Source of the DNA: Proteromonas lacertae
Taxonomy: Eukaryota
DNA: 64,000 nt
Reading direction: 5' to 3'
Assembly: GCA_002245135.1 (NCBI GenBank)
Contig: NGBS01000871.1
Coordinates: forward strand, 372,001-436,000
The notes beneath the pieces are model-generated. The model made no database searches, had not been told where the DNA came from, and saw nothing but the letters and a program-made list of their open reading frames with translations. Made by a program: the position numbers and the translations under genes. Below are positions 16,497-61,900 of the stretch, piece by piece (the stretch's first letter is position 1; each line of letters opens with the position of its first letter).

Positions 16497-16668
16497 ATGA
16501 TAGAATATTTTTTAGTATATAAAAATAGTATTTCTGAGATTTTATACATTCTTGTAATTGAAGTATAATAGTAAAGTATTCGTTTCTAGTTTATTATATT
16601 GTTTTTTTGGTGTGTGTAATTTTGATTAATTCTGACATGTAAAAGTGTAATTCAAATTATTTTGAAAA

Positions 16669-24517: not shown

Positions 24518-27500
24518 ATGCCATCGTATGATTAACATATTTTTATTTTTGTAATGTTAGTAAGGATTTAATTTTTGATGAATACAATTTCTTCACCAAT
24601 GGAAGGTCATACAGATTCTCTGAAAATTCATTATTTATTTTTGACACAGATAGTAGGTTTCGTAAGATTTGTGTTAAAATAGTAACACACAAAATCTTTG
24701 ATATTTTTATACTACTGCTTATATTGCTTAATTCAATTTTATTGGCAATAGGAGATTATAATTGTGTTGATCTAAAGACTTTAGTATATTCAGTGGTGTT
24801 AATATATGTATATAGTCTCCAACACATGCTGGTATTAATCCATACACATTAGAAAAATGCAAATCATTTCGAAATAGTTTTTCTGATGAATTAGATCTTC
24901 CTTTCACTATTATATTCACATTAGAATGTGTTTTGAAAATAGTTGCAATGGGATTTATATTAGGAAAGTATATATTTTCATTTGTATATATTTATTATTT
25001 ATATAGAGGTTCTTATTTAAGAGATGGTTGGAATTGGATTGATTTTATTGTGGTAGTAACAAGCTTATTATCAAGTCTTCCAGGATTTCCTAAGATCTCT
25101 TTCGTAAGAGCACTTCGAGTTTTAAGGCCTTTAAGAACATTAAATAGAGTTCCAAGAATGAAACTGCTTATAACAGCTTTATTAACTTCAATACCAGATT
25201 TAGCAAATGTATTGGTTTTATTAGTTTTTGTTTTTGCTATTTTTGGTATTTTAGCACTTAATTTTTTGATTGGAACAACTCATTATAGATGCAGATTAAC
25301 TCCATATCCTATAGCTGTGAATAAAACACTTTATAGTATTTATACAGATTTAGAAATGGATTGGTATACTGATGGTAAACCAAATAATTCAATAGTTTAT
25401 GATATTATTTATAATAGAGAAAAATTTCCATTTTGTCATTATGATAATAATGTATCAGCTATTATTCCATTGGATGATAAATCATGGAATCAAGGTACTT
25501 CTGATTGGACAACACCTCGAACTTGTGTTTGGCCAACTGATCAAGAAACAATACGATTATGTGGTGATAAGAATGGAGGTGATTATAAATGTCCAAGTAA
25601 TATGTATTGTGAATCAAATTATGATAATTATGGCAATCCAAGATTTGTATCAGATGTAAGGAATTACATGCAAGAAGCGACTTTCTATGAAGAATTTGGT
25701 TATGGTTATCCTATCTTTGATAATATAGGAGATGTAGCAATGTCTGTTATTCAAGCATTGACATTAGAAGGTTGGAGTGATTTGATGTATGCTTATATGG
25801 ATTGCTATTCACAATGGTTTCCTATTATTTGGTATTGTTTATTAGTTATTTGTGGTAATTATTTTGTATTAAACTTAATGTTAGCTGTTATTTTCACCAA
25901 ATTTAATGAAGCTCAAGAAGAATCAAGGCTTATGAAGAAGTTAGAACTACAAACTAAAAATCAAAATAGTGCTATTTATAAAGCAAGAACAAGTCAACAA
26001 ATCAGACAATTATATGATCAACCAAACTTCATAAGAAGATGGTGTTATAGAATATCAAGTCATTCTTATTTTCAAGCTTTTATTATATTATGTATTTTGA
26101 TTAATTCTGTTACATTGGCACTTGATAAATACCCGCCAAATGATGCAATGACAGCAAAAGCAGAATATATTAACTTTACATTAACCTGTATATTTATGTT
26201 AGAAATGGTATTGAAATTAATTGGATATGGTCCATTCTTATATGTAAAAGATGGTTTTAATATATTTGATGCAATTATTGTAATTGTTAGTATTGTTGAA
26301 TTGATTATGGTTCCTCCTGAATTTTTAGTTGCAACAGGTGAAATGAATACTTCAGGTATATCAGCTTTGAGAACATTTAGATTGTTTCGTTTATTCAAAT
26401 TAGCAAGATCATGGAAATCTTTGCAAGAGATTTTAAAAACATTAGGAAAATCAGTTGAAGATATTTTAAACTTTTCTGTTTTATTGATGTTATATATGTT
26501 TGTTGAAACATTAACAGGATGTACATTTTTTTCACATTTATTTCATTTTGATCCAGTTAGTGGTTATGTTATTCATATTCAAGAAGAAGGATATCTTGAA
26601 GCAGATATTCCACGATCTAGATATGATGATTTTTATTATTCATTAATGACAGTTTTTCAACATTTGGCTGTTGATAATTATAACTTAGTAATGTATGATC
26701 AAAGAAGAGCTACAACTTGGGTGAGTGAAATTTATACATTCAATTTGATTATTGTTGGTAATTGGGTTGTATTGAACTTATTCTTAGCTATCTTACTTGG
26801 TAATTTCGATGAAGGTGATACATTCTCAACATCAAAAGGTGATTCAACAATGAGTAGAATGGTAAAATCAGTTTATAAAGGTGTAAAATTTGTGGTTTGT
26901 TGTTGTAGAAGATCAAAAGTTGCTCCAGATTCATCAACAACTATGTCAACTCAAGAAGGGTCAGTTCATGTTACTAGTCAAGAAAGCATGTCATTAAAAC
27001 ATTCAACAAGTGCACTTGAAATAAAAGTAACAAACGCTGGTTCTCCTCGTCTATTTAAGCATGTTTCATCATTAGGATTAGTGGGTGATAATAATAATAG
27101 TGTCACAGCTGGTATTCCTGCTACCCCAAATAAGGGACTTTTAAAAGCAGCAAATTATGATAAACATAAACCAAGAATTAATACTAATCTTAGTCGTGGT
27201 CCATCCAGACAAAATTCAACAATCAGTCCTCATGATAATGATGAATTAGTAATTAATACACCTAACAACAACCATTCTAGTATGAGTAATAATCTTCCAT
27301 TGAAAAGATCAGCGACTGCTGATAAAAGAGGAATTTTATTATTAAAAGCACAACAAGTAAATTTATTTATTTTTTATTTATTTATTTTATAGAAAATTGA
27401 TGGTACTACCGTTACATCTTCCACTCCAATGTCAAGAACAACAAGTATGATGAATGTAAAAGATAAAAAGAAAAATGATCTAAAAAATATTACAGCTGCT

Positions 27501-30176
27501 GCATTTTTAAAGAAACAAAGATTAGAAACACAGAGATCAGCAGTTTCTACTCCACAAAAATCTGGAATGTTTAGTAAATCTACAACTCCCAGAAAAAGTA
27601 AAAGCAGCAGAATGTCTTCAGGTACTTCTATGAGTAGTGATAGTGGTGATGATGTTACAGCTGATTATTTTATGACAAACATGTCAGTAACTGATGATAC
27701 AAAAATACCAATAGAAGGAAAAGCATTCTTTTTATTATCACCAGATAATTGGTTAAGAGAACATATAGCTGGAATGGTACAAACTAAAATATTTGATAAT
27801 ATTGTTCTTGCACTTATTTTGATTAGTTCAGTATGTTTAGCAATAGAAAATCCACTTCGTGATCCTGATAGTGTTATTTCTGATATTTTAGAAGTTCTTG
27901 ATATTGTTTTGACTGTATTATTTGCCATTGAAATGGTAATGAAAATGATAACTTATGGTTTGATTCTAGGTCAACATGCTTATTTAAGAAGTGCTTGGAA
28001 TTTTCTTGATTGTTTTGTGGTTATTGTTTCAATATTAGCTTTAATTCCATCAGTAAGTGTAAGTTCAAATTTAACTGCTTTAAGAGCATTACGTACATTT
28101 AGAGCATTAAGACCTTTAAGAATGATTAGTAGAAATCCTGGTTTGAAATTAGTTGTTAATGCATTAATATCATCAGTGCCAGGTATTGTAAATGTTGCAT
28201 TGATTGCTTTGTTGATATTCTTAATATTCTCAATTGTTGGTGTTAATTATATGAAAGGTTTGAATGGTGGTTGTATGGGTGATTGTTTTGATGCATTAAG
28301 TGAAGATCAAGTTGATTTAATTACATATCCAAGATATTATAGTAATTTAACAGATGCAGAAAGATTATGGGGTGATGGAAGTTATAAAGGTAAAAAATCA
28401 AAAGCTGTTTGTGAATGGATGGGATGTGAATGGAATGAAGAATTTCATTGTCCACAAAACTTTAATAATGTATTTCAAGCATTATCAACATTCTTTCAAT
28501 TAATTACAACAGAAGGATGGATGGATGTAATGTATATAGCTACAGATGGAAGAGGAATTGGTATGCAACCTATTCCTGATAGTCAAATTGCTTGGTCATT
28601 CTTTTTTATGGCATTTATTGTTGTTGGTGCATTCTTCGTATTGAATCTATTTACTGGTGTTGTGATTGATAATTTCAATAATATGAAAAGAAAATTAGGT
28701 AAAGATCATGTGTTTTTAACAGATGAACAAAGAGAATGGGTAGAATTACAAGAAGCATTATTAGCAATGAAAGTACAAAGACCTTTAAAAAGACCAAAGA
28801 GTAGATTTAGAAGAAGATGTTTCAATTTGATAAGATCAACTATATTTGATTGGGTTATAATGATTTCCATTATCATTAACACAGTTTTCATGGCAGCTAA
28901 ATCATTTGGTGAACCACATGAGTTTACAAAAGCCGTAGAAATATTGAATTATATATTTGCTAGTCTTTTCACAATAGAAATGATATTGAAGTTACTTGGA
29001 CTTGGTTTAAAACAATATTTTAGTGATGGTTGGAATATATTTGATTTCTTAGTTACTATTGGTTCTGATATTGGTATTATATTACAATTGACGATGGGTA
29101 ATGCAAATCTTAGTGCATTATTAGTTGTAAGAACATTTAGAATTGGTAGAGTATTTAGATTAGTTCAATCTGCAAAAGCACTTCGAACATTATTCAATAC
29201 ATTAGTTTTGACTTTACCATCAATGGCAAATGTAACAGGTATTTTAATATTAATGTTTTTCATCTTTGCTGTGATGGGAGTTCAATTATTTGCAACAGTA
29301 AAAAATGGTGTAGTTTTGAATTATGCAATTCATTTCCGATCATTTGGTAGATCATTCTTAACACTATTCAGATGTGCTACTGGTGAAATTTGGGATTTAT
29401 TGATGTATGATTGTTTGAATAGTGAAGAATGTGATCCTAATTTAACATATAATCCACATATGTGTGGTTTTAATGATAGTCCTGATTGTATTCCATTAAA
29501 TGGATGTGGTACTTGGATGGCTTATATATTTTTCTTTGGTTTTACCACAGTAGTAACATTTGTACTTTTACAATTATTTATTGGAGTTATTCTTGATGGA
29601 TTTGGTAATATTTCTAACTCTGAGAATGCAAAATTAACTCCAGAACAATATGATCAATTTGTAACAGCTTGGAATCGTATATTAATTATTATATATATCT
29701 TTTATTAAATAGAAATTGATGTTGATGCAAAATGTTCAATTCCTTTATCTCAAATTGATGATTTATTTCTTCTTATTCCGCCTCCAATGGGCTTTGGTGA
29801 AGGAATAATTGGACCAGATCTGAGAGAAAGAATCTCAAAACTTCGAATTCCTATGTATAAAAGAGGTGGTGATGAACCAAGAGTTTATTTCAGTGATGTT
29901 GTTTTAGCATGTGCCAGAAGAATTGTTGAAGATGATTTAAGAGAGAGAGGAGTTGAAGATATTGATTTAGATTTACCACCAGAACATAGAGCCAATAAAG
30001 CCTGGAAAAAGAAATTTAAAAAGCTGAAGCATGTTACTGATAAGGATATTGTATATAATATTCAACATTATGCTGCTGTTTATAAATTACTATCTGCTTA
30101 TCATTGTTATAAATTCAGAAAACAAATGATGATTCAAGAAGAATTAAGTCCTAAAATTCCTCCTATCGATTTGTAA
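24518..30176 (+). CDS. Four-domain (4x6TM) voltage-gated Ca2+/Na+ channel alpha subunit; introns 24526-24560, 24784-24815, 24968-25006, 27357-27392, 29677-29712
   Basis: Four S4 segments (RALRVLRPLR, LRTFRLFRLFK, RALRTFRALRPLR, RTFRIGRVFR) and four P-loops (TLEGW, AVDNY, TTEGW, TGEIW). C-terminal EF-hand-like region (WNQIDVDAKCSI...PPPMGFG) and IQ-like segment. All five introns restore frame. Confidence 0.95.
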
Positions 30177-31564: not shown

Positions 31565-34500
31565 TTATAATGCAGTTTCTTCTTCAGAACTATCATCATC
31601 TTCACTATCTTCTTCTTCTTCAGAACTTTCTTCTTTCTTTGCTTTTCTCTTCTTTTCAGTCTTTACATATGTTTCTTTTTTATTATTATCATCATCATCA
31701 TCACTTTTCTTTATTTCTACATTCTTTTCATCTTTCATTTCATCTCCACCTACTAAATTATTATAATTATCACCTGTTTTACCTATTCTAACTCCTTTAC
31801 CTTTAGCTGCTACTGGTTTTGAAGGTCTTCTCATCACAACTGAATGATTTCTTAAGAAGAATATAATTATCACAGCAATTATCAAAAATCCAAATATTCC
31901 ACCAAATACTCCTCCAACTATTGCTCCTGTATTACTAGAGCTTTTTACTTTTTCAATTGTCGTGGGTTTATCAAAACTAACTGAACTGCTTTGGAATGAA
32001 GTTGTATATTCTGATCCTTTTAATCCTGTTCTTATTTTTAATTGAATTGAGGAGGAAGATATATCAGATGAAATACTTGATGGATTATTTGTTTCTATAT
32101 ACACATCTAATATTACTGTTCTTGATTGTAATAATCTTAAACGAGATGTATGTTGTTCAACAATTACACTATTTACTTCTATATTTAATGATTCAGCTAC
32201 ACTTATTTGAACTGCTAGCTTCATCATATTATTTAGAGAACCTATTACACTAGATATTGTAATGGTGATTTTTACATATTCTTTATTTACATCAGGTATA
32301 AACACATCACTACTTCTACATTGACTAGTATCAATATTACCCCAATGACCAGATACACCACTTGCATCAGATTCACATAATCTTATCATCATTCCATATC
32401 CTTCATCACAAAGCGCTTGAGCATATTTATTTATATCTGTGGAAGGCCATCTACCATCAGCTGGACATTTTGGAAGGGTTATTGAGAATGTAAGTATTAC
32501 TGGAGTGGATGATCCTAAACTACTTGATCCTGTTACTCTACACACTGAACTCATTGCTTTGGATGCTTTTCCTGTAAATGTTCCTGTGGTTGTACTGAAA
32601 TCAATTCCTTCTAAAGTAGGTAAACAACTATAACTCCATGATGTTATTGGACCATTTACTATATTTTGAGGTGAAATTATTCCAATATCTTCATTATAAG
32701 TGAATGAATATGAGGATTTAGGATAAGTGAAAGATGGTAACTTTGGTGTACAAGTTCCACTTTCTTGTCCCCATACTGGATCTTTACCTTCACCACATAT
32801 TCTTGTTTTACTACCCTCATATCCTGTAGGACAATCCATTTTTACTGTTTCTCCTGCATTGGTTGCTGGCCAGGATATTGAACTTGATATTGTAGCTGGA
32901 CATTTAGGTTGAATCACTTCGATTGTAATTGTTGTTGTTACTGAAGTACCAGATACAGCTGCAGATACTACATATGATTTTGATGATTCAGCTGTTCCTT
33001 TAGTTGCTCTACCATATATTTTTCCTGAATCAGAGGTTATACTCAATCCTGATGGTAATGATGGATTAATTGAATAAGATTTTACTACACCATTAGCTAT
33101 TGGAGGATCATATTTACTCTCTTCTATGTCAACATAAAATCTCATTGTTGTTTCTGGATATGTTATTGTAGTTGCATAATTCTCAGTTATAGTTATTCCT
33201 ATTGTAGCTGTGTAAGTTTTATCATCATTACCAGTTCCTGATACTGTATAAGTTCTTCTTGCTTGCTCAGATGCACCAGATCCACTTATTGTTCCTGTCT
33301 TTGGATCAAATTGGAAATTGGGCGGTAATGATGGATTTATACTTAAATCTCCTTTAATTTCAGTTAATATTGGTTGGATTGGTATTATAGCAGTATTCTT
33401 CAATTGAATGATTTCTTTTGTACGATATTCAATTGATGGATTTATCTTTACACAATTATCTATGATGCTTTGCCAAGCAGGATTTCCAAATCTATCATAA
33501 CCACAATATCTTTGTTTTTGACCTGTATAACCAGCATCACAATTCAATGTTGATAATGTTCCAGGATTTGTATCTGGGAATCCATCAGCTGCTTCACATA
33601 CTTTTGGTTTTTCTTTACATGTTGATATTTCTTCACTCCAAGATGGATTTATATCATTTGTACAAGTTCGACTTTTAGATCCTGTTTGACCTTCTGGACA
33701 ATCTACTGTAACAGTTACACCTGCATTAGTTGTGGGATAATCTGAATCAATACTTTGACATTTGGGTTGAACTAATTGGATTGTTATTTCATTACTTTCA
33801 ACAGCTACTGAGTTTTGTAAACCTTGAACTCGATATTTTTCTGTACCTTCACTTTGACCAGCTAATGGAGTTCCTGATATTATTCCACTTGTCACATCTA
33901 ATACTATACCTGGTGGAAGTGGCGGAACTGTATAAGTCAATATTATTGAACCTACTAAAGTTGGAGCAGATGTTTGATTCATAAATCCAATATTGAATAT
34001 ATATGATGATGGATTATATTTTATTGATGAAACTGTATTTTTCACTTTTATATTTAATGTTGTTGTTACTTGTAATTTCTGTTGCATTACTGTTACTGTT
34101 ATTTCCATACCTGCTTCTGCTGTTGCAGCTGTTGTTGTACCAGATATAACACCAGTATTTGTACTTATTGCTAATCCAGTTGGTAATGCTGTACTATATA
34201 TTAAGATAATCTCAGCACCAACTAAATTGGGAGTAATAAACACAGGATCATTCAAATTGAATGTATATTCAGCTGGAGAATACTCAATTGTTGCAGGTAA
34301 TAATATACAAGTTGATCTATCAGGGAATGACCAAACTGGTGCTCCACTTGATCCATCACAATATCTGCTTTGCTTACCTTCATATCCAACACCACAATCT
34401 TTTGTTGCATATGTTCCAGCTATTGTATCTTCAAATAAACCATCATTTAAACATTTCATTTCTTTTGCATATATTGTCACTTGAGTTATAAATGATGTAT

Positions 34501-37500
34501 CTCCTGTATATGCTGTTACTTGACAATTTGTTGCAATATCAGATTCTTCTGTTGCTAAACCTAATATTCTACCATATCTTGGATTGAATATTATACCATT
34601 TGGAAGAATACAATCTATTGAATAACTATCAATCCCACCATTTATTGTTGGAGTATAATTGCCATATGCTTGAGTATAGAAAGTCAAAATATTATTCATT
34701 CCATAAGTTAATGATGTTGCTTTTGTTGCTGAACAATGATTTTCTTCATTAAGGAATGCAGCACTATTAGTATTAGGTATTTTGTAACATAATCTTTCTT
34801 TATAACCATATTGTCCAGTTGGACATTTTACAAATGCTCTTTGGTTTGCTACTGTTTCTTTATATTCACCATCTGCTGAACATATTGCTGGTTTACATAT
34901 TTGAATATGCATTTCTGCAAGTCTTATATAATATTCATTATATTTCACTTTCATAGATAATACTTGAATTTTGTAAGCTTCAAATGATCTAATATTATTC
35001 TCCATTTCAAATATGAAATCTCTTCCTGCTGTAGTAGCAGTTATAACAGGAGTAAATTGTTTTATTTTCAACCATTCTGGATTATCTCTATTAAATGCAC
35101 CATATACTATTATATCATTTATCAAATACCAATCATATAAATAAAGACCATTTGGGTTTCTTAATAATAGAGTATTAAAGAATTCAGCAGTTCCAACTGG
35201 CCATTTGAATATTATTTCTCCTGGAAAATTGTAGTCGTGTAATATATCAGTACTATAATATGTTCCAGAACTCCAATCATAACCTAGCTCTAATGGATTA
35301 TAATAATTTGATGGAAATGTAGTTGATGCATCCATTGTTGGTTTAGATGAAGAAGATATCGTTCTTATCGAACAATCACCTTCTGAATCAGCAGCTAATA
35401 ATGGAGTTAATAAAACAGTTAATGGATCTTCATTTAATGATTTGGAATGTTTATGAACTTCTATGGCAAAATAGTTTGTTCCAGTTTGTAATAAATGTTT
35501 TCCTATTGTTATACTCATTAATCTTGGTGGACTGAATAATTCATTTGATGTAAGAGTTGTTGTAACACCAGTCATTGGTAAGTTTCTTCTATAGAATTCA
35601 TTTCCATTTAAATAACAAATTATACCAGCATCAAATCTCAATGATAATTGCAATTGAGCAACTGTTGATATTGAACTTGAATATTCAAATTTTGTTCTAT
35701 AATATGTTGTTACTGCAGTTCTTGAAGGATATACACTTCCTGATATTGTTTGCCAATTAAATGCGTTTGGAAGATATTCATTATACCAGCCACTTGATGG
35801 TTGAATACTTGACACTTGCCATTCAGATTTCTTATCTATCAATGTATTTAATGATATTAATTTTGGTAATGTAGGTTTATCATATTCTAATTTTAATGAC
35901 ATTAAATTAATCCCTTCAACTAATACTGTTACAGAAGTACCATCACTCCAATGTCTGCTACTTGTACTTCCTAAAGTAAACATATAAGCACCACTATCTT
36001 CACAGAATGAATATGTTCTTTCAGTATTATCGTTTAGAATAGCTAAATCTAATAAATTAACATCTGAAGTTTGTTGCTTGAATTGAATTATTTTATCACT
36101 GGCTGATGTTCCTGCTTTTACTGTTACTCCAATTAACATTTTAGCACAAGCTGTTGCTGATAAGGTTAATGGATATGGTGTTCCTTTCTCACCTTTATTA
36201 TTAATTGGAGTTATTGATAATGTTAATGGATTACTTGAAAGTGTTCCTTTTATCACACCTGTTGTTGTATCAAATGATAATGTTTCTGGTAATTCACCTG
36301 AACTGATTTCAAAACTTGTAGCTGGAGTGGTTAATGTTGGATAGAATGAATAATATATTCCAGCGATTAATGGAGTTGGTTGGGAATAACTAAATATTGT
36401 TGATGATCCACTAACTGCCGATACTGTAAATGGATAATTTACAGTATCGCTTCCATCTTTCCATTCACCCATTCTTAACAATTCACCTTCAATATAAACA
36501 CTATATGTTCCTCCTGATTTAGCTGCACTGGTTATTGTTAATGTAGCTATACCAGTTGGCAAACACTTTGATTCTTTTCCTGTTGCGTAATCATTATATG
36601 AGCCTGATGCAATATTAACGAATGAAGCAGAAGCTGAATCAACTATAGTAATACCAACTTGTTTATTTCCTAATTCAAATGAAAAACTAACATACACTTT
36701 TCCATCTGCACATCCACCTATAGTAATCTGTACATCAACTTCTATTGAACCAGATGGATTACTACATTTTACTTTAATTGTACCTTCAAATGAATGACTT
36801 GGTATTCCTGTTATTGCACCTGTCATGGCATTCAGTTCTAAACCAACGGGTAATTTATCTTTTGTTGAATACCTCACATTTTCACCAGATCCTAATGTTG
36901 GAGTATTATCTTTCATTATTACACCAACAGTTCCAGTTATTGGAGTGTATGTTAAATTCATTGGTGGACTATAAGGATTTACTACTATTGATAATGCATA
37001 ACTTAATGTTGATCCATCTGTATGTGTTGTTGTTACTGTATATAATGATGTTAATGCTGCTTTCTTTGGAGTACCAGATATTACACCAGATTTAGTATTA
37101 AGATTTATACCTTTTGGTAATGGTGGTTCTACATAGAAACTAGTATAAGAATCTTTTGATACTTGGAAGAATACTGGAGAATTATCAGCTATTTTCACAT
37201 TCACTGTATAAGTTGCAACACTGTATTCATATGAAAATGAGGAACTTTCTATATGATATAAATTAGCTACAGGCAATTCTGTTTTGGGAATTATTTTACT
37301 TCCATATAGTTTTTCCCATTGAATACTAATAGCAGTCATAGCATTCAATTCAGTTTTCCAAAAATTTACTTGAATTGGATTTAAACCAGCTTCTAATCTA
37401 ACTACACCTATTCCACTACTGAATGCACAACTTTGTAATGGAGTTATGATATTACCATTTATATCGAATCTAACACCATCCATTCCACTCACTGTAAAGG

Positions 37501-40500
37501 TATAACTTCCTTCTTCTGGAACATCTAAATAACCAACCCATTTAGCTGCAAATTGAAGAGAAAATTCACCTGATAATCCTGTCCAAATCTCAGTTGATGC
37601 TGCATGATAATAAGTTGGAATTGTTCTTTGATATTTCAACGAAAAACCACCTGAATCAACATCAATATAATTACATCCTAAATAATTACTGTATGTATAA
37701 TAACTTCCAGTTAAGCCACTTAACAAATTATCTTTTGATAAATTCACTATGGTTATATAAATTGATGTTTCAATTGTTGTTGTATAACTTTCACATTTGA
37801 ATGTGTATTTTGTTCTTTTAGAAGCTGTTGTTGGTGTTCCTGTTATTATAGCATTATCAAACACTAAACCATCTGGTAATGTATCTTTAGATATAAATTG
37901 AATGAAATTACCTTGAACATCTGGTACAATTCTTCCTATATCAACACCAATTATAAATACATAATCATTTGATGGATATGAATATACTGTAAGTAATTCT
38001 GGTGTATGAAACAATACAGAATCTGGAACATATTCAAAATCTGTAGCACCTGGTAGTTTCCATTGTAACATCATTATATGATCATTAATTCCTTGGTAAT
38101 AATATAAACCAAATGGATGAGTTCCAGCTGACAATTGCTTTGTAAACGTTACAATTTCATTCCAGACATTATTTTTAGATACAATTGTGTCAAATGTATC
38201 AAAAAATATAGCAGCTCTATCATCACCTCTAAGTTTAAATTCATAACTTCCAGTTACATTCAATACAATATATCCTTTCCATTGAGCACAATAATATTTT
38301 GATCTTTTTACACTTGAACCAAATGTACATTCATCTTGTTTTACATTCCAGTTTGATAAATCTGTTGGACTATCAGCCCACTCATATTCGATTGTTCCAT
38401 CATCTAAACCTCTCCATATTGCAAATATATCTGATGGAGGATCTCCATACACTTCTTTTGTATATTTACCAAATAATTTAGGAGTTAATATAACATTAAA
38501 CACATTTATCTTTACATTGAATGTAATACTATTTACTGGATTGGAGGCTGTAATCTTTGTTGTGTAGTTGTGGACTGTGTTTGGAATACCTTTTATTATA
38601 CCATCTTTAGATATTGTTAAACCATCTGGTAAAGATGAAGCTGTGAAATTTTGAACTTCAAAATTACAAGTTGGAGCAGATAGACTTATTTGAGTATCTT
38701 TAACTACATTTATATCACCAACAAAAACATATGAGCATTTTGTTAATTTTCCCCAAACTGTTATATGAATTTCAACATTAAAATAACCTCCTGTTGCAGA
38801 TTTGAACTTGACTGTATAAATATTCTTTCTTAAAGGAGAAGTTGGACTTCCAGTTATAGCACCAGTTTGTTCATTAAATGTTAATCCAGTTGGTAAACCT
38901 GAATCAATTTCAGCTGCAATTGAAGCAGCTCCACTACTACTACATGTAGGAGTCATTGTTGTTGTTACATCAGTATATAAACCCAATACATATTCTGATT
39001 GAGGATATGAACAATCTGGAGCGTCACCTAAATCACAATTAGATAAATCCCATGCATCCCAAGATGGTGGATTTGTAGCCAAACAGACTCTAGTCTTTGT
39101 ACCACTATAACCTTTATCACATTTTGTAGTTAACATCTCATTAACTGGCGTTTCTGGGAATGTATCAAATGCTGGACAAGATGGTAATGCTGTTTCTAAT
39201 TCTATTGATGCTGTTATACTTCCAATTCCTTCATATGTATCACCTATAATTTGATATGTTTTACTTGGATTAATTGTGTCAGAGATAAATCCTGAAATAA
39301 TGCCTGTTGTTGAATCTATTGATAAATCACTAGGTAGTGAAGGATTTGTTCTAAAATTAATTATTGTTCCTTTCATTGTTGGTATTATTGGAGTAATAAA
39401 TTGATTTACTTTTAAAAGAGCAACTTCTGGATATGTCAAAGATGGTTGAACAGAATTACATCCACTTAAATCAATAGCTCCCCAAGTTCCATCATCATTA
39501 CACGTTCTTCTCATAATTCCTGCAACTCCATTTGTACAAATAGCCATTGCTGTTGAACCTGATTTGGTAGTTGGGAATGGATTACTTGCAGGACATAACA
39601 ATACACTACAAACAGCTGGATAGAAATCAGAGAATGACATTCGATAGTCTCTTACACAACGTTGTGTGTAAGTATATTTCACTCTTTCATTATGAAATTT
39701 AATATATTGAAATGCCATTTTAGGTGCATTTAAAGCTTCAAATTTTACAGAAACTTGTCTACCAGTCCAAGCATATTCTGCAGTCTCTGCACCAGGCAAT
39801 GCATTATCATTATCAACTCTATCTATTTCAACCCAAACATCGCTTGAAGTTCCTGTATATGTGTTTGTGCCATATATTGTCCATGCAGCTGGATCACGAT
39901 TTACACAATCATTAGCTGTTACAATAAAATATGTATTAAAATATATAGCTTTTGTTAATTTTAAAACAAGATCTGCAACTCCTCCATTAGTGGTTCTTAA
40001 ACCTTTTGTATTTTTATTTACATCAAAATAATAAGCGGAACATTCTGGACATGTATAATCTGTAGCTGTTGGCGCTGTTGAATCATATATAAGTTCAACA
40101 TCTGCATTATTTGATACTGTCCCACTATACATTGTTTCACATCCTGAACCTGAATTACCAATCATTGCCATTCTTACTTGGAATGGATCAGATGCTGCTG
40201 TTGTAGTAGGTGCTTTATGAGTTTCAAATGCTATATAATTTTCACTGTTTGCAATTAATAATGAAGTAACAGCTACAATATTAAAATCTTTACCACCTTC
40301 TGTTCCACTTGTAGCTTGTGTTTGGTCAGTTACTGCTCCTTCTGGCATGTTGATTCTATAAAATTCTACACCATTTATATATCCAATTAAACCACCATCA
40401 CTTCTTACTTTTATTGAGAAACTAGAATATTCTTCTAAACTAGCCATTGTGATTGTAGTTCTATAATACATTGATATACTTGATCTTTGAAAACTACCTG

Positions 40501-43500
40501 GTTTGGCTTTTGACCATCCTTTTTGACCAATTGCATTCCAATTTTGAGCAAATGTGTCACTATATTCCCAATCATGAGCTGTTGGTATTTCAATTGATAA
40601 TACTGCTGTATATAAAGCTTCATCTCCACCTTTGAATGATAAAGTAGACATAAGCTCATCACGATTTTGAACTATTACATAACTATTTGAATCCCAAGCT
40701 ACTCTATCAGTACTACCATAATATATTGAATATGAACCTTTCAGTATACATTCTGAATAAGTGGTTCTTGAATATGGTTTTACTCCTTTGACTGAATATG
40801 TTTCATTACCAAAACTATCAACTACTCTTAATGACATTTCTCCTGAACTTAATCCTCCATTAATTGTTATTCTAAATAACACATGATTCTCTGCACATCC
40901 TACTGTATGAGTGTAAATAATTGTAACTGGAGAACTTAAGACTTGACCATTTTTAGCTGTTATTGAAATTGTACCACTTGCTTTATCAACTTCACCAACT
41001 GTTCCATATATCAATCCAGTTGTACTATTCAAAGATAAACCAGGTGGAAGTTCAGTTGCTGAAAATTCTGTTACTGCATTTGATAATATCTCTGGATATA
41101 ATTCATAATATTCACCTGTTACTATTGATATACTTCCACTTCCATATGCAATTTTTGGAATTCCATCAACATTTTTAAGATTCAATGTAATTATTGTCAT
41201 TTGAGTATTTGACCATTTTCCATATTTTAACATTTTCTTTCCTTCTTGACTAATGATATATGTTCCTACCCTTCCTTGTCTTTGTGTAAATGTCACTGTT
41301 ATAGTTTCAGTTGGAATACATTTTGAAAAACTGTAGTAAGTGTCATCTTGATGATTATCTTGAGAATATATTCTACTAGAAAAAGCATCAGTTATTAAAA
41401 CTGTAAAATCTCTTCCATAACCAGTAATATAAGCAAATTGTAAAAAATAAGAACCTTCATTACAACGACTAATTGTTATTGTCACACTTCCATCCTTACT
41501 ACCTAATGCATTTGTCGCTGTTACTTTAATCACTCGATTTGTTACTGATTCTGTTGGTTTTCCAGATATTACACCAGTAATGGAATTAATTGATAAACCA
41601 CTTGGTAATTCACCTTCACTGATTTGAACAGTATAATAATTACCATCTATTACTGGAGTTATTTCTAAATATGTATCTAATGCACCTGTTACTATTGGAG
41701 GGTTGAATGTAACTGATGTAATTTCTTGATATGATTTGTAGGATAATGTCATTCTACTTTGTAATTTCACATTTTGAGATGCTTCTGCTATTATGGTAAA
41801 GAATGTCGGTTCTAATGATTCTTCATCTGCTGTTATAGTTCCAGAAATACATCCTTTAGTTGCTGCATCTTCACTAATTATTAATCCAGCAGGTAATTCA
41901 GGAGAAGATGAAAACTTCACAAATACACTTGTATCACTCATTCCTTGATAAATTGGACAGTTTTGTGGTATTGCAACATTCTTTATATATTCGGCAGTTT
42001 CATAATTGTAACTGAATGAATATCTTGGCATACGTAAGAAATAAGCATCAGGAATTGGCGTATTTGCAATTCCAGCAGTTGTACATTCCCATTGAAGCTG
42101 AATACTCTTTAAGGCGTTTCCAGTTGATTTCCAATAGGTTATTTCTATATCATTAAAACCAGTGACTAAATTAACAGTTCCTGTAACATAAAACATGCCA
42201 TTGTTACCACAACCAGATGTTTGAATTACTATTTTATTACCTATTTTGATTCTAATACCACCGTATGTTGTTGATGTTATTGTATAACTGCCACTAACAT
42301 CAGCTTTTAATACACCAGTCCAAACAACAGTAAATTGATTAATAAAATCACCACTTAAGCCTTCCCATGCTGCTGCACTAAATCCTTTAGGTAATACTTT
42401 ATCAAATCTTCTAAACTTCAAAGTATCATAAAATGAAGAGATTTCACGATAATCACATTCTCTCTCTGGTGATGAATAATACAAACCATCTAAACCAGCA
42501 GCCATATTAGCTGCTGAATTTTCTAATACTTGAATAGTAATAAAATTTGTTATTGTATAAGATGAATCCCAATTCTTCATTGAGAGTGCATATGGTTGAG
42601 CAACAGCTATCTCAGTTGGTTTTCCACTTATCTTACCCCAATTATCCATTCCTAAACCTTTTGGTAAATCAGGAACTGATGATAATTCATTCATTAAACC
42701 TGTTACAACTGGTGTTAGAGTTTGTTCCTCACCTTTAATCATTAACATATCTAAAGTTCTCCATTCAACATATTGTAATGGCGGAGGCATGGCTTTTGCA
42801 CCATTTGCAGTTGACATTACTGAGACTTCACTTTCTCCAGCTCTTTTCCATTTTACATAAAATGTACCTGAATTCTCCAAATTCTTTCCTATAAAGCTAA
42901 TGAAATGAGTTCCTCTAGACAATGTTTCTGTTGAGGTAAGCTTTTCATTCCAAATAGTACCATATTTCCATACTCTATTCATATTATCAAGATATACCCA
43001 TGCTCTATCATCTATATTTATCTCAAAATATATTTCTTCTGTTTCTTCAGTTACTTCAAAAGCTACAGTAAAAAAATAATGCAATTGCGCTGTCTTTAGG
43101 TTTGGTCCACATTGAATAGTATTTCCTCCACATTCATATTGAGCTGTATTTAGCTTCATTGAGTAAAAAACAACTTCTCCATTTAATATACTATTCACAA
43201 TGTCTTGTTTTATATCATCTCCTCTATCTGAAGTTTCTATAAAAGACAGAGGAAGCATTGAAGGAAATTCAGCAAATCCAACTGTTTTCAAGTTTAAAAC
43301 AATGCTAGTACCAGATAAACTTATAACCATATTATAAGTCGTTGCTACACCAGTAGCTACTCCAGATATTAAACCACTTGATGGATTTAATGAATAACCA
43401 GGAGGTAAAGTTGACGTGGTTGTGAATGTTCCAACGACTTTTTGTTCACATTTAGGTGGTTGAATGATGTAAAACTGACCTAAAGGAACTGGAATGAATG

Positions 43501-43614
43501 ATGTAGTGCCATAACTACAGATCTGATACTGTGCATGGCAAGATAATAGTGCTAAGATTGATATAATTTAAGAATTATACATATAACAATAAGCAAAACA
43601 GACTTACAGATCAT
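31565..43614 (-). CDS. ~4000-aa type I cell-surface protein: signal peptide, many He_PIG (putative Ig) repeats, four PA14-like domains, galactose-binding/discoidin-like domains, Cys-rich sushi/hormone-receptor-like modules, TM helix, basic then acidic tail; intron 43552-43580
   Basis: Spliced N-terminus MICKSVLLIVISLLSCHA-QYQ; repeated LPxGLxxxxxTGxISGTP; PA14-type WxGYxxxxxxGSYxF; CPxGYxGxxxRxCxxxxxPxW modules; TM AIVGGVFGGIFGFLIIAVIIIFFL. Confidence 0.88.
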
Positions 43615-51934: not shown

Positions 51935-52645
51935 ATGGATAATAAGTCTTCAAAAACATTAGAACAGATATATTCTTACAAATTTTTATATTTTTATATT
52001 CCTATTGTATTTTTACAGCTATGACTCATTAGTTTATTGCCTGGATTATAGGCTTTGGATTTAGTATGTACGCACGTGCATGGGAGTTTTATATAATTTT
52101 AACAATTATAGCATTTGTATTGAACAATCTGTTTTTATACTTTAGTTAATATATGCATTAATATACAGAGATTGCTTTCATCCACATTATCAAGTTCCTC
52201 TGTTTGCTTATATGCGAGTATATATTTTTGCATTTTAATTCTACGTTTAGAGTGAAGAAGAAAGTGGATCTATGGTAGATATACTTGACAATACATTTGA
52301 TACTCCTACACCTACACCTAGGCCTGATGAAGCAAATCACAATAAAAGAAATCAATTTAGTGAGAGAACTGACGAACTTGTAGTTAATAAGTCACCATCT
52401 AGCACTACATCAGAAGATTTATATAATGAGATGATTAAAAAGTATATTCACTCTTTCTATACAAATATTAGAAACAGCCATTTAATAGCTACTAAAAGAT
52501 TGAATAATAGAAAGTTTTCTATTCATGGTGAACAATTAAAACGTATTAAAGATATTGCTTTATTGTATGATTAGAAGAATTACAAAGAGATAATCAAGAT
52601 TGCCCTTGTGGATCTGGTTTGAAATACAAAGATTGCTGTAAATAG
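51935..52645 (+). CDS. Small membrane protein with a C-terminal SEC-C (SecA-type zinc-binding) motif; 6 exons
   Basis: Introns 52007-52032, ~52131-52168, ~52218-52250, 52442-52471 and 52543-52574 give MDNKSSK...FIAWIIGFGFSMYARAWEFYIILTIIAFVLNNL...RDNQDCPCGSGLKYKDCCK*. Confidence 0.75.
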
Positions 52646-52832
52646 ATATAGTTTAATCAATTTAACGATTGTTTTTAATTTAAAACATTTTTCTCTTTTT
52701 TAATTAAAAAATACCCAGTTAAAATAATATATTCGTTTTGAAAACCAACGAGGCTTAAATTGTATTTAGACACGAACAATGTTGAAACACATGAAACGAC
52801 TATATTTAAAAAGTGAGTCAACACAACGATAT

Positions 52833-54309
52833 ATGGACAGATATTACTTTTTTCTTCTATTTTTGGTGATAGTTGGTGTGAATTGTGATGGTTCTGGAGT
52901 TTCTTTGACAATTGATATCAGTATGTTTACAGAAGACATAGCCAAAGATGTGTTGCTTTTAGATTATGGTGTAGCTGATAAGGAAATCATCAGATTAGCA
53001 GGAGCTGTAGCAATTCCAGATAACATGACATTTGCTAGTTTTTCATGGTGGACTGATGAAGCAGAAGATTATACAGAAAAATATGAGTTCATAATATCTC
53101 CAGTAGATCCAACACTTCTGATGGGATATTTAGACATTCCAATGAGTGGATATGTTCCAAAACAACAACAAAAGTATAAATATGTTTTTATTGATAATAA
53201 TGAATAGATGGATGTTTAATATGAGATGTTTAAATAAAGTTGGTGAATCTCAAAAAGTAGAAATTGCTTTACAGTTGAGATTATGGACTCATGATGGAGT
53301 AAGAGAATATAGTGGAGTAAATGTGAAACCATCCAAAATATGTAATCATATTGATTATCCTGCTTGTACAATATATCCCAAAACAAAATTAAGTACAAGA
53401 AAAACCTTGACAATAACCACAATCGATATGTTTGGTGAAACAAATGAAGCCAATGATATTGAAAGAATCAAAGATGTATATTATTCATTACAAGATACAA
53501 ATACAATAATCTCAATTCAAAATGCTCCAAAACATCTACAAGAATTATTTATTCTAAACACATTTAATAGTTATAAATATCACATTGCAATGCCAAGAAG
53601 TGATGAAAACTCAAAAGATGATAATGGCTTATTAATATTAAGTAAATATCCAATAACAATTTGTAATTATATAAATCTGGGAGTAGATGAAGAATATAAT
53701 CGAATTTATGGAGCAGTGATAAGTGGAATAGATATAGGAAGTAATCGAATAGTATTTTTAATCAACAGTATATTGCCAAATGATGAAAGTAGTTATATAG
53801 CTAGTTTAAATGATTATTTAATAAAGATTGAAAATGAAGTGAGTAAAACAATAAAAGAATTTAAAAAGAATAATGAAGAATATAATATAATGACAATCTA
53901 CAGTGGAGATTTAGGTCAAGACAGTGGAACAATGGATGAACAAACTGATGCTTATTTAAGTTTATTAGAATTATTAAAAGCAAATGATTTATACAATACA
54001 AGTGGTGATAATCGATTAATAACTGATCATTTAAAACATATTCGAAGTGAATTTTTATTGAGAAGTAATAATGAAGAATTCTTTAATAATGAAATTCAAA
54101 TTCGAAGTATTTCAACATTGAATATAAGTAGTTCAATTAGTGTAGACTATAATGAAGAAGAATTTTTATTAGCAACTCCAAACAGTGGTTTAAGTGTGAC
54201 TTTTGAATTTTGGCCAATTGGAACTAATAATGATGAAAGTAATATTTATATGGAATTTGGATTGAAGAATATGATATTGTTATTGTTGATGGTGTTATTG
54301 TATTTATAA
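52833..54309 (+). CDS. Secreted, probably GPI-anchored protein: WIF-like domain + degenerate endonuclease/exonuclease/phosphatase (sphingomyelinase-like) domain; intron 53174-53207
   Basis: Signal peptide MDRYYFFLLFLVIVGVNC; WIF-like VSLTID...AIPDNMTFASFSW...KYEF...LDIPMSGYVP...MRCLNK...SKIC; EEP-like DNGLLILSKYPI and IYSGDLG; hydrophobic C-terminus MILLLLMVLLYL*. Confidence 0.75.
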
Positions 54310-54650
54310 GATTAATTATAAAGTAAATGATTATATTGCACATTGTTTGTTTGTATATATTCTTCGATATTCTCTAATAACTACTTCAAATATAAACAAT
54401 TTGTAAAAGATTTGCACAGTTTGTATCATTTATTGTAAATATTTGTATACACATATTATTTGATTTAATTATTCATTTTGTATAACTATACAATGAATTG
54501 TTCTTAACAATTTGAATAATGAAAGAAAAAATAGTATTACCACAATATCAGTTATTTATCTTCTTACACCATCCTAACTCAAGTATAACTATAAAAGTGT
54601 TTATGCCATAATTAATTAAATAAATACACACACAAATATATATATAGTAT

Positions 54651-57697: not shown

Positions 57698-58843
57698 ATG
57701 ACTCAAGGAATGTTATTTGCTATGCCTCTCATAGTTATCAATATGGGAGGTGAAATGACCTATATTTTGGAACAACGTCTTCGAGCACAAAAGATATCAC
57801 CAGATAAGAGCACAAAAGGTATATTGTTGATATAATAATCACATGTAGTTCTTGCTGATGTTGTAAAAGCAATGTACAATGAAAAATTCATGAACGAATT
57901 GTTTAAACCACAAACTGTTTATTCCAATCACAGTACAAGACAAATATTCAGTAGATTAGCTCATTCATCAATAATGCGTTTAAATACTGCAAGTATGGAA
58001 AAATTGTACGATTTAATGACAATGGGTTTTAAATATCAGTTATTAACAATCCCTCATCCACGACATTTATTAGATGTGACAATCAACCACATGAACACCA
58101 TAATGAACATCATAAAAGGTGAAGCAAAAATCGTATCAGTGGTAGAAGCAAGCAAACAAAGATTCATCAAGTTGTACAATGATTTCACAGATGGAGATTT
58201 TTATATGTTAAAGCATGTATTATGCAGATTCTTCCAAGGAAGAAGAGTTAAAGTATCTCTATTCTTACAAGATCATATCCAAAATCTTGACGGTTCTATC
58301 ATATTAGACGCAAGTGGACAATTACCAAAAGGTACTGATGTTCCTGGAACAATTCGTCATTTTACTGCTGATGGTAAATCCAATGGAACTTCAACAATTC
58401 AAATTATCGATTCTGAAAAAGTTCAACCCTATAAGAACTTAACTACCACATTAGGAGGTAATTTATATTCTAAAGAAAGAAAACCAGCAGCAGCTGATAA
58501 ATCTAAAGGAGAAATGAAATTGAAAAAACCAACTGAACCTGTTGAAGAACCAACCATTATATCTGAATCAGGTAAAGCTGAAATGAATTTATTGGCTGAT
58601 CTGATTGGTACAAAAGATGCAGCTGGTGATAAAGTGCATATCGACTTATTCGCAGCTAAAGATCCCTATGGAACAAAAGGTGGAACTGATAGAACAGCTG
58701 ATATTATCTTAATTGATACAGCTGAAGGTAAAAAAGCTGCTTGTAAGGAGTTAGAAAAGTTATATGGTATGAATATCGAAGAAACTTACGATGAGAAGGT
58801 TGATGATGATGATTTATTGGCTTTGATGGATTCTGCGAAGTAA
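57698..58843 (+). CDS. OSCP1: OSCP1 (organic solute carrier partner 1) homologue; intron 57819-57848
   Basis: Spliced MPLIVINMGGEMTYILEQRLRAQKI...KFMNELFKPQ...LAHSSIMRLNTASMEKLYDLMTMGFKYQ, RVKVSLFLQDHIQNLDG, LGGNLY and C-terminal DDDLLALMD match OSCP1 family motifs. Confidence 0.92.
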
Positions 58844-58959: not shown

Positions 58960-61900
58960 ATGAGCAATTTAAATGGGAAAATTAAAGTTAAAATTCATCT
59001 TAACAGCGAATTATATGTACATGAAGTGGATAAAAATATAACAGGGAGTGATCTTTCTGCATTTATATGTGTATAAACCTATTTATTTATCTATAGAGAA
59101 TTTTTAATGCTACTAAAATAATAGCAACATGTGAACAACAAAGCATTCCAAATAGTTCACTGTATGATTATTATCATAAGAATGAGTTGGATATTTATGT
59201 TAGTGTATTACATTCATACAATCAACAATATTTAAATCAACAACAGTATTTTAATCCAATGCAACAACGAAATTTACAGTATCAGCCACCACCACCGTTG
59301 CAACATCCCCAACCACCAAAAACAGACTCGCAGCAACAAATTTTATATCAACAAAACTATCCACCAACACTTCAACAACAACTAATTAAAAGTCACACTC
59401 AACCTCAACCTCAATTATATACTCCACAACAACAAGCTGTTCAGATGCAGAGGCAAAGTTCATTTCAAACTAATCAATATCAACAACAACATTTTAATCA
59501 AGAAGTATCTCCTCCACTTCCTCCACCTCCACCTCCACCTCCGCCTCCTCTACAACAACCTCCACCTCAAATGCAAAGACAAAATTCCTATCAAACAAAT
59601 CAATGTCAACAACAATATTATCAACAACCTGTAACAAATTCGCAATTAGCTTCTGTTGCTCCTCCTCCTCCTCCTCCTCCTCCTCCTCCTCCTCCACCAC
59701 CACCACCACCACCACCACCACCACCACCACCACCACCACCACCACCACCACCAATTCAGCAACAACCACAAATACCACCACAACATATATATTCTCAAAC
59801 TGAACCACAACCTCACCTATTACAACAGATAGAAAGACAGAATGTATTTCAAAGAATTCAATATCAACAACAATGTCAACATTATTCTCCACAAACACTT
59901 CAGCCTCAACCACAGATGCAAAAACAAAATTCCTTACAAGGAAATATATTTCAGCAATATCCACAGAATATACATCAATCACACTACCAGCAACAACAGC
60001 AACTGCAACAAAATCTACAACAACTAAATATCAATAAACAGATAGATCAACATCCTCCACCTCCTCCACCTCCAAATCAACCACAACAATTACAACAACT
60101 TCCAATAATAGAATCTCCAACATCTGAAGACTATTTACACATTCTCGTTGAAGATAGTAAAACTAATGAAGTATTTGCTTTGCCAATTGATAATAATGAC
60201 ATTGAAATATGTATAGATAAAGAATATACAAAATCCTTACCATCATCATTAATTTATGGAATTAATAAAGCCGTAAAATTCAAATTAGGAAAAGATGGAA
60301 AAGTATATAAATTACCATTTGTAGATAAAGGTAGTAAATGCTTTTATTTTTATGAATTAATTGGATATAAAGGAAAGAATATATCATTTGATGATGATGA
60401 AGTTGTTTTTCCCTGTAATAATAATAGATTATTAGTTCATAGTGATAATCCAGTATTAAAAATAACAATAGATAATGAATCTAAAGAAATCCAACCAAAT
60501 CGATTCATGCCCAGACAAAAGCAACATCATAAGTATTTTGAATGGAAAGATAGTTATATTTCAAAAATATTTAGTAATATGATTATTTACAAAGATATTC
60601 CTGTGTTAATATCATCTCCAAAGTCTACTTTAAAGTCATCATTGGTTATTCAAGGGTGTAAAGTCTATCATTTACCATATACTCATTATTATTGTACAAG
60701 TGACTGTAGTGAAGAGGAATTTTTAAATGAATGTTTTTATGATGCATTTTTGAAAGGAAAAGTATTGGTATTAGATAATTTTCACTATTTACCAACAAAT
60801 ATATTAAATGTAATATATCACTGTATTATTTCAAATAGAAAGTCTTTCTATTCAGAAGATGAAAAAGTAGTTGAAAAACATAATGATTTCAGATTGATAT
60901 GTATTGTAGATAGTGAAGAGAATAGTTATTTATATGGCCATGCTATTTATCAGTTGTTCCATATAGAAACAAACTTAATGGATGATTATAAAATAATAAT
61001 ATCAAATATATTAACTAAAACATATAATATTAAAGATAATGGTTTGATAGACGATATTAATAGCAGATATAATGAAGAGAATAACATAAAGGATAATTCT
61101 TTAACTATGAATCAATGTTTCATTATAGGTAAATATTTATCTGAAGGAAGTGAAACTAAAAGAGATGATATCTACAGATTAGTGTTTGATAATAGTATGT
61201 TAATTCCACCAAATGATGTAGAAATTCCCAAATGTAATACAATAATGGAATTTGATAATAAAATCTGGAAAATGTTTTATTATACTATGAAAATGTATTT
61301 AAAATATACATATCCAGTAATTATAGTTGGTAAAAGTAATGAAATCATATACAAATATTTGAATGGATTTATTAATAGTGATAATAATAATAATAAATAT
61401 GAATATATTCATTGTGCTTTCCAGTACAACAGTGATGAATATTTTGACAAAAACAATGGTTTTATAGAAAAGGGAATTGAAAATGGTAAAACCGTTGTGT
61501 TAGAATCTATTGAATCTATTCCATATTACACATTACATCATTTGTATCGTTTAATTGATAATTTAGGTGATAGTTCATATCTTAAGAATATATCAAATTT
61601 GAATAGTGATTTTAGATTGATTTTAACAACAGCATCAAATGTGAATCTCATTCCCCAAAAACTGATGAGAAAATGTCAAGTAGTAACAATTCCAGAAGAA
61701 GGTAAAGATGGAGATATTAATCCTGAAAAGATTAATAGAGAAGAATTAAAAGTTACATTCGTAGAAAAACATCCAGAAATGAGAAACGATGAAGAAAATA
61801 AAGTATTAAGAAAAGAAGTATCTGATGAAATTTACAACAATTTACTTTATAATAGATCTGTTACATTGTTTGGTGAAAAGAATAGTGGAAAATCAAATAT

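What the first reader, a model, noticed from the sequence alone, without database searches (positions are those of the whole stretch)
52833..53343. Apparent WIF (Wnt-inhibitory-factor) domain on a secreted protein of a non-animal protist
Seen: the ORF track splits this gene. Removing the 34-nt GT-AG intron (53174-53207) gives a signal peptide followed by VSLTIDISMFTEDIAKDVLLLDYGVADKEIIRLAGAVAIPDNMTFASFSWWTDEAEDYTEKYEFIISPVDPTLLMGYLDIPMSGYVPKQQQKWMFNMRCLNKVGESQKVEIALQLRLWTHDGVREYSGVNVKPSKIC. This aligns block by block with the WIF1/RYK WIF domain as I recall it: LWID~LTID, EDILIVSEG~KDVLLLDYG, AIPVNIHSMNFTW~AIPDNMTFASFSW, YEF~YEF, VNVPLLGTVP~LDIPMSGYVP, FPCLGK~MRCLNK, KTC~KIC. Both disulfide cysteines are retained. 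Established: WIF domains (WIF1, RYK/Derailed, Drosophila Shifted) bind lipid-modified Wnt/Hedgehog ligands, have a lipid pocket and are known from animals. Inference: either the fold predates Wnt as a lipid-binding module, or a gut protist displays a Wnt-binding decoy, possibly host-derived, that could modulate intestinal Wnt signalling. The tiny native-style intron and AT-rich codon usage argue against contamination.
Basis: partly seen in the sequence, partly recalled or inferred. Interest (0 to 1): 0.92.

Follow-up and report, generated by a model that had tools for sequence, protein, structure and literature searches.

The report
Protist WIF–sphingomyelinase-like surface protein
A protist, likely gut-dwelling, encodes a protein that joins a domain matching the 'animal-only' Wnt-inhibitory-factor family to a predicted, likely inactive sphingomyelinase-like domain and a predicted membrane anchor, so it more likely binds lipids at the cell surface than blocks host Wnt signals.

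Summary
Splicing the 34-nt intron gives a 480-aa protein: signal peptide, WIF-like domain, DNase-I-fold (EEP) domain and GPI-type tail.

WIF call: exon 1 alone has Pfam WIF as its only hit (E=0.0019, below the cut-off). An uninterrupted homolog, found through exon 2, is colinear across the intron, and 6 of 6 members of its cluster pass the Pfam WIF cut-off. Structure prediction could not confirm the WIF fold (pLDDT<50).

In the homolog's model it ranks neutral and bacterial sphingomyelinases first (Z 22-23), but the metal-binding Glu and both catalytic His look lost in the window protein. The two aromatic residues that RYK-type WIF domains need for Wnt binding are also absent.

Best reading: a GPI-anchored pseudo-sphingomyelinase with a WIF module that likely binds phosphocholine lipids (0.42). 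A Wnt decoy is unlikely (0.1). A supplementary InterProScan table already counts six WIF hits in Proteromonas lacertae, without comment in the text. I found no description of the WIF+EEP+GPI architecture. Origin (transfer from a host or older than animals) is untested.

The parts
52833..52886 (+). Predicted signal peptide (aa 1-18); two further in-frame ATGs lie upstream at 52779 and 52791
   Evidence: Hydropathy peak; aligns with the N-terminus of homolog P0004; upstream ATGs
52899..53173 (+). Exon 1 part of the WIF-like domain (aa 23-113)
   Evidence: Pfam PF02019 E=0.0019, only hit; 30% identical to P0004 over 73 columns, pairwise E=4e-6
53174..53207 (+). 34-nt GT-AG intron, phase 2
   Evidence: Restores an open frame; gap-free colinearity with P0004 favours it over the 52-nt alternative; not checked with RNA
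53208..53343 (+). Exon 2 part of the WIF-like domain (aa 114-159), with C121 and C159, the predicted WIF disulfide
   Evidence: Aligned to P0004 C125 and C160. P0004 C125 aligns to a Drl-2 Cys, and P0004 residue 160 is at the end of the Pfam model. No Pfam hit on its own
53344..53403 (+). Linker (aa 160-179) with conserved C167, a possible disulfide partner of C266
   Evidence: Both Cys nearly invariant in the family; the pairing is inferred
53404..54213 (+). EEP/DNase-I-fold domain, sphingomyelinase-like, catalytic residues apparently degenerate (aa 180-449)
   Evidence: Homolog P0004: Pfam PF03372 E=0.0037, Atlas EEP clusters 0.93, fold matches Z 22-23 to sphingomyelinases; motif positions
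54214..54309 (+). Predicted GPI-anchor signal: small polar residues, then a hydrophobic stretch that ends the protein; stop at 54307-54309
   Evidence: Hydropathy; same pattern in 5 of 5 homologs examined that reach a natural end; no GPI predictor was run

Best explanation
The gene encodes a 480-aa protein, predicted to be GPI-anchored on the cell surface, in which a WIF-family domain is fused to a predicted sphingomyelinase-like domain that has likely lost catalysis, and it likely works as a non-enzymatic binder of phosphocholine lipids (sphingomyelin or phosphatidylcholine). Proposed history (inferred): an active surface sphingomyelinase-type enzyme carried the WIF sandwich as a built-in lipid-binding module; paralogs then lost different catalytic residues while keeping both folds and the anchor. 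In the present protein the WIF core would hold acyl chains and the dead enzyme cleft would hold headgroups, serving lipid capture or adhesion to lipid surfaces in the gut. Shown: gene structure, domain order, family membership with P0004, HMM match to WIF. Predicted: EEP fold, signal peptide, GPI anchor, loss of catalysis. Inferred only: lipid binding, cellular role, history.
For: Architecture is shared with an uninterrupted homolog found through exon 2 alone. WIF cut-off passed by 6 of 6 cluster members. The EEP domain's top structural matches are sphingomyelinases: B. cereus SMase Z 22.6, rmsd 2.7, 222 aligned; human nSMase2 Z 22.1, rmsd 2.9, 239 aligned; best non-SMase (TDP2) Z 20.9; same order in the independent wide search and Foldseek. 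The E53-like position is Glu in 0 of 6 and the H151-like position is His in 0 of 8 aligned sequences; the window protein also lacks the N197- and H296-like residues (residue roles from PMC9710629 passages and reference titles). WIF-1's domain binds DPPC, a phosphocholine lipid, in its core. RYK-type Wnt-binding aromatics are absent. P. lacertae has 6 WIF hits and 7 sphingomyelinase-like hits, against 0 and 0-1 in the nine other genomes of the table, which fits a fused family, though the table gives counts only.
Against: No lipid binding was shown. The WIF part of both models is unreliable (pLDDT<50), so a cavity could not be assessed. The protein has only 2 extra residues where WIF-1 has a 6-residue insert that helps open the pocket, and Drl-2, which lacks that insert, has no cavity. 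The sphingomyelinase lead over other EEP proteins is only 1-2 Z units, so substrate class is weakly fixed. The fold was obtained for P0004 (27% identical), not for the window protein. Catalytic positions were assigned from motifs and predicted strands, not from a residue-level superposition.
Confidence: 0.42

Rival explanations
1. Surface-coat or adhesion protein: both domains are real but serve as scaffolds for protein or glycan contacts, with a closed RYK-like WIF core and no lipid binding.
For: Drl-2's WIF domain has no cavity; the spacing after the second strand is nearer Drl-2 (+2) than WIF-1 (+6); predicted GPI anchor; the WIF part varies about twice as much as the EEP part within the P0004 cluster (17 of 140 vs 14 of 242 sites, p=0.03).
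Against: It does not explain why both partners belong to families that handle phosphocholine lipids; the variable sites are mostly hydrophobic swaps.
Confidence: 0.25
2. The N-terminal domain is not a WIF homolog but another beta-sandwich that scores on the WIF HMM by convergence or chance.
For: Exon 1 is below the cut-off; single-sequence searches of the PDB miss WIF chains; profile hits to Drl-2 are not significant (E=1.1-1.3) and absent with a third profile.
Against: 6 of 6 homologs pass the cut-off, 4 of them over model positions 20-131 of 131; WIF is the only family hit in that region; a cysteine and several blocks align with Drl-2; an independent InterProScan run counts WIF in a related lineage.
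Confidence: 0.12
3. Decoy for host Wnt or Hedgehog: the surface WIF domain captures lipidated morphogens and alters gut epithelial signalling.
For: WIF-1's alkyl-binding site contributes to Wnt binding, and WIF1 binds Shh, so a lipid pocket could catch lipidated ligands; the acidic residue equivalent to Drl-2 D45 is kept (D39), and P0004 keeps the F61 equivalent; the location is extracellular (predicted).
Against: No aromatic residue in residues 46-62; the Y57 equivalent is Glu, a change that abolished binding in Derailed; no EGF repeats; fusion to an enzyme-like domain; about 27% identity between family members, with no sign of a conserved ligand surface.
Confidence: 0.1
4. Active surface phosphodiesterase (sphingomyelinase or other) that uses non-canonical catalytic residues, with WIF presenting the substrate.
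For: The fold is intact; the Asp of the GDxN motif is kept (D348), and some homologs keep further motif residues.
Against: No catalytic position is conserved across the family; the metal-binding Glu and first His are missing in every member that covers them, whereas central metal-binding residues are over 99% conserved in bacterial SMases.
Confidence: 0.08

Closest known systems
WIF domain (Pfam PF02019; WIF1/Shifted, RYK/Derailed/LIN-18)
   Same: HMM match over most of the model in homologs; signal peptide directly before the domain; two cysteines in place; predicted all-beta sandwich with a short helix after the first strand.
   Different: Non-animal host; fused to an EEP domain and a GPI-type tail instead of EGF repeats or a transmembrane pseudokinase; RYK-type Wnt-binding aromatics absent in the window protein; WIF-1's 6-residue insert absent; fold and cavity not confirmed.
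Mg-dependent neutral sphingomyelinases (SMPD2/SMPD3) and bacterial sphingomyelinase C; EEP/DNase I superfamily (PF03372)
   Same: Top structural matches of the homolog's second domain (Z 22-23, rmsd under 3.5, 220-240 residues).
   Different: 13-20% identity; catalytic Glu and His residues apparently lost; extracellular and GPI-type anchored; carries a WIF domain.
Six InterPro WIF hits in Proteromonas lacertae (PMC12129017, Supplemental Table S5)
   Same: WIF domain in a gut stramenopile of the lineage the window probably belongs to.
   Different: Only a count in a table; no architecture, function or discussion. Whether these are the same family, or include this gene, was not tested.

Membership tests
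WIF domain (PF02019) | Score at or above the Pfam gathering cut-off (25 bits) | tested here: met
   Met by 6 of 6 full-length homologs (25.6-31.8 bits). The window's exon 1 alone gives 18.4 bits; the spliced protein was not scored.
WIF domain (PF02019) | Conserved disulfide cysteines | tested here: met
   C121 and C159 match P0004 C125 and C160, which fall on a Drl-2 Cys and at the end of the Pfam model. The bond itself was not shown.
WIF domain (PF02019) | WIF beta-sandwich topology by structural match | tested here: inconclusive
   pLDDT<50 in both models; only generic beta-sandwich matches, Z up to 7.4.
WIF1/Shifted subfamily | Five EGF repeats after the WIF domain | tested here: not met
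   An EEP domain follows instead; only 5 Cys in the whole protein. Definition from PMC7565927.
WIF1/Shifted subfamily | Lipid cavity, aided by a 6-residue insert after strand 2 and a bulge in strand 9 | tested here: inconclusive
   The insert is +2, not +6, relative to Drl-2; strand 9 was not covered by the Drl-2 alignment; the model is too poor for a cavity.
RYK/Derailed subfamily | Conserved Wnt-binding Tyr and Phe (Drl-2 Y57, F61) | tested here: not met
   E51 and L55 in the window protein, no aromatic in 46-62; P0004 has Val and Phe. The mapping runs through a weak alignment (E=1.1).
RYK/Derailed subfamily | Transmembrane helix and cytoplasmic pseudokinase | tested here: not met
   The protein ends in its hydrophobic tail.
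WIF domain (function) | Binds Wnt or Hedgehog | not testable with these tools
   No animal ligand could be supplied for co-folding; needs an experiment.
EEP/DNase I superfamily | DNase-I-like four-layer fold | tested here: met
   For homolog P0004: Foldseek E=6e-11, Z 14-22 for 38 EEP-type chains then a drop to 7.5, Atlas 0.93. Transferred to the window protein by homology (E=1e-35).
Neutral sphingomyelinase / SMase C (active enzymes) | Central metal and acid-base residues (N16, E53, H151, D195, N197, H296; B. cereus numbering) | tested here: not met
   The window protein has D187, N219, I302, D348, G350, N439, so 1 of 6 is kept. Positions were assigned by recalled motif patterns and predicted strands; D195 numbering is recalled, the rest.
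Neutral sphingomyelinase / SMase C | Closer to sphingomyelinases than to other EEP families | tested here: inconclusive
   Ranked first in three searches, but only 1-2 Z units above TDP2 and bacterial EEPs; no phylogeny.
GPI-anchored proteins | Signal peptide plus small-residue omega region and terminal hydrophobic stretch without a cytosolic tail | tested here: met
   Pattern seen by eye in the window protein and 5 of 5 homolog ends examined; no predictor or experiment.

The most novel reading that the evidence does not exclude
An ancestor of these gut stramenopiles took a WIF domain from an animal host, fused it to its own sphingomyelinase and now displays it as a GPI-anchored trap whose lipid pocket captures lipid-modified host Wnt or Hedgehog: a protist surface protein that tunes intestinal developmental signalling.
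Probability: 0.1. Interest if true: 0.9.

Novelty: new variant of a known kind. Interest (0 to 1): 0.62.

Why it matters
WIF is catalogued as a domain gained in animals (PMC3753549, Table S4). A native, intron-bearing protist family that carries it means either a rare animal-to-protist transfer of a developmental-signalling domain or an origin before animals. Its fusion to a sphingomyelinase-like domain gives a concrete test of whether WIF is basically a lipid-binding module, independent of Wnt, and offers a surface protein family for studying how gut protists deal with host lipids.

Tried and rejected
RNA check of the intron: no RNA holder was listed, so no reads were laid. No whole genome is held for the window, so paralogs were sought only within the 64 kb; none was found.

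Word-based homolog searches found nothing for exon 2 (3264 candidates) or exon 1 (364 candidates, longer proteins only), and only P0004 and P0001 with a profile. DNA scans found no relatives in metagenome contigs or prokaryote genomes; plasmids gave only E=5 hits. NCBIfam gave nothing meaningful.

No WIF structure was listed in any fold search. The Atlas gave no usable hit for the WIF part of P0004. PDB sequence searches never reached an EEP chain, so no residue-level alignment to an active enzyme was obtained. Several MAFFT runs misplaced exon 1 against the C-terminal half; these were not used for the WIF argument.

The 52-nt alternative intron was rejected. The TGTTTGTT motif at 54344 was not used as a lineage marker: 6 copies in the window is about what its composition predicts (my estimate, about 5-6). 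No complex prediction was run, because no Wnt or Hedgehog partner was available. Three look-ups of earlier scan findings were empty.

Full report
Gene structure. The spliced frame runs to a stop at 54307-54309 and gives 480 aa with hydrophobic stretches at both ends and five cysteines (18, 121, 159, 167, 266). The finding's coordinates therefore cover only a third of the gene. A second frame-restoring intron of 52 nt is possible but fits the homolog worse (118 vs 127 bits). RNA could not be checked.

Context. Neighbours are ordinary eukaryotic genes: OSCP1, a Vps39-type CNH protein, ankyrin proteins, NAD kinase, PA28, an HSP70-like protein, an ion channel and a 4000-aa He_PIG/PA14/HRM membrane protein; 10 of 13 ORFs scanned had Pfam hits. 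GC is 22-34% along the window. The gene's GC3 (0.165) lies within the range of six neighbours (0.12-0.23), and junctions show short AT-rich introns, so contamination by animal DNA is unlikely. I infer a gut stramenopile of the Blastocystis/Proteromonas lineage: HRM domains are counted at 3-34 per Blastocystis genome, 10 in Proteromonas and 0 in Cafeteria; the link between He_PIG proteins and Blastocystis is recalled. OSCP1 is absent from all eight Blastocystis strains of that table. This is a lineage-level inference only.

The WIF call. Exon 1 hits only Pfam WIF among 24,736 models (E=0.0019, 18.4 bits, cut-off 25). A phmmer search with exon 2 against 1.84 billion representatives gave 6 proteins at E up to 0.001, all unnamed Logan sequences in clusters of 1-17 members. 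One of the six, P0004 (451 aa), is full length; the other five begin after most or all of the WIF region. P0004 was found without exon 1, yet its N-terminus aligns to exon 1 (30%, pairwise E=4e-6) and runs without a gap across the splice junction. P0004 scores 27.4 bits on WIF over model positions 20-131 of 131, and its five cluster mates score 25.6-31.8; these six are 93-100% identical, so they count as about one independent observation. A profile of exon 1 with P0004 lists Drl-2 (7ME5) weakly (E=1.1-1.3), with a cysteine and several blocks in register; a third profile did not. Against this: single-sequence PDB searches missed WIF chains, and the fold test was inconclusive because the domain was modelled at pLDDT under 50. 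I put WIF homology at about 85-90%.

The missed domain. P0004 residues 212-361 match Exo_endo_phos weakly (E=0.0037), and 26 of 30 Atlas hits for residues 175-430 are clusters carrying that family alone (best 0.93). An AlphaFold2 model from a 7-row alignment that includes the window's exon 2 (mean pLDDT 58.9, mostly 60-90 in this domain) matches human neutral sphingomyelinase first in Foldseek (E=6e-11). VIA-align ranks B. cereus SMase (Z 22.6, rmsd 2.7, 222 aligned) and human nSMase2 (Z 22.1, rmsd 2.9, 239 aligned) above TDP2 (Z 20.9); the wide search gives the same order. The fold is secure; the sphingomyelinase subfamily is a lean, not a proof.

Catalysis looks lost. Using recalled EEP motif patterns and the predicted strands, the window protein has D187, N219, I302, D348, G350 and N439 at the positions of N16, E53, H151, D195, N197 and H296 of B. 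cereus SMase. Across the eight aligned sequences, Glu is present in 0 of 6 that cover the E53 position, His in 0 of 8 at H151 and 3 of 7 at H296, Asp in 5 of 8 at D195 and Asn in 4 of 8 at N197. Central metal-binding residues are over 99% conserved in bacterial SMases (PMC9710629, passages). Different members keep different remnants, as expected for decay from an active ancestor. The tail is GPI-like in the window protein and in 5 of 5 homolog ends examined.

Wnt or lipid. In Derailed, Glu substitutions at the equivalents of Drl-2 Y57, F61 and V63 abolish DWnt-5 binding, and WIF-1 uses the same area (bioRxiv 10.1101/2021.04.29.442059, section 14). Mapped through P0004, the window protein has E51 and L55 there and no aromatic residue in 46-62, though it keeps the D45 equivalent; P0004 keeps the Phe but not the Tyr. 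WIF-1 binds DPPC in a large cavity, Drl-2 has no cavity, and a 6-residue insert and a strand-9 bulge make the difference (section 10). The protist domain has +2 residues at the first site, so a pocket is neither shown nor excluded. Both partner families handle phosphocholine lipids, which is why I favour a lipid-binding surface pseudo-enzyme (0.42) over a plain coat or adhesin (0.25), non-homology (0.12), a Wnt/Hedgehog decoy (0.1) or an active enzyme (0.08).

What is known. WIF is listed under 'Metazoa - gain' in PMC3753549 Table S4 (supplement part read); WIF1 proper is described as bilaterian (PMC7565927 and PMC2959043, passages). However, Supplemental Table S5 of PMC12129017 counts 6 WIF hits in P. 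lacertae and 0 in Cafeteria and eight Blastocystis strains, and 7 sphingomyelinase-like hits in P. lacertae against 0-1 elsewhere. The main text has no 'WIF' or 'Wnt'. If the window comes from that lineage, this gene's family may be among those hits; I did not test this. Searches for a description found none: 'WIF domain' with 'Blastocystis' 0 papers; 'WIF domain' 65 papers, 40 listed, none on protists by title; 'PF02019' 2 papers (PMC6343361 passage read, on loss in Myxosporea); (listings only). PMC5608401 and PMC6792448 main texts lack the term. Unseen material may bear on novelty: most supplements of PMC5608401, 4 of 16 of PMC6040629, bioRxiv supplements, and the P. lacertae genome paper, which is not held. 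PMC8699845 was seen as passages.

Verdict. Real gene, probable WIF domain outside animals, in an architecture (WIF + degenerate sphingomyelinase-like EEP + GPI-type tail) for which I found no description. Origin and ligand are untested. New variant of a known kind; interest 0.62.

Noticed in passing
window 31565-43567 (-): 4000-aa single-ORF membrane protein with He_PIG, PA14 and HRM domains. HRM, like WIF, is listed as a metazoan gain yet is counted 3-34 times in Blastocystis genomes and 10 times in Proteromonas: a second 'animal' domain on this lineage's surface proteins.
   Followed up: partly
window 57839-58843 (+): OSCP1 gene (Pfam E=1e-56); the family is absent from eight Blastocystis strains but present in Proteromonas and Cafeteria.
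   Followed up: partly
P0004 cluster (P0004, P0022-P0026): The WIF part is about twice as variable as the EEP part (17 of 140 vs 14 of 242 sites, p=0.03), mostly hydrophobic swaps in predicted strands.
   Followed up: partly
window 24816-30176 (+): Large voltage-gated-type cation channel with several Ion_trans repeats, split by short introns.
   Followed up: no
window 16666-18192 (+): Divergent HSP70-like ORF covering only model positions 2-484 of 599.
   Followed up: no
window 22789-24093 (+): Jacalin-like lectin domain inside a long coiled-coil-looking gene (E=1.8e-6).
   Followed up: no
window 59494-60037: Long trinucleotide-type low-complexity tracts giving homopolymeric peptide runs in several frames.
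   Followed up: no
window 52251-52574 (+): 107-aa ORF directly upstream of the gene, probably the last exon of a small intron-rich gene; no Pfam hit.
   Followed up: no
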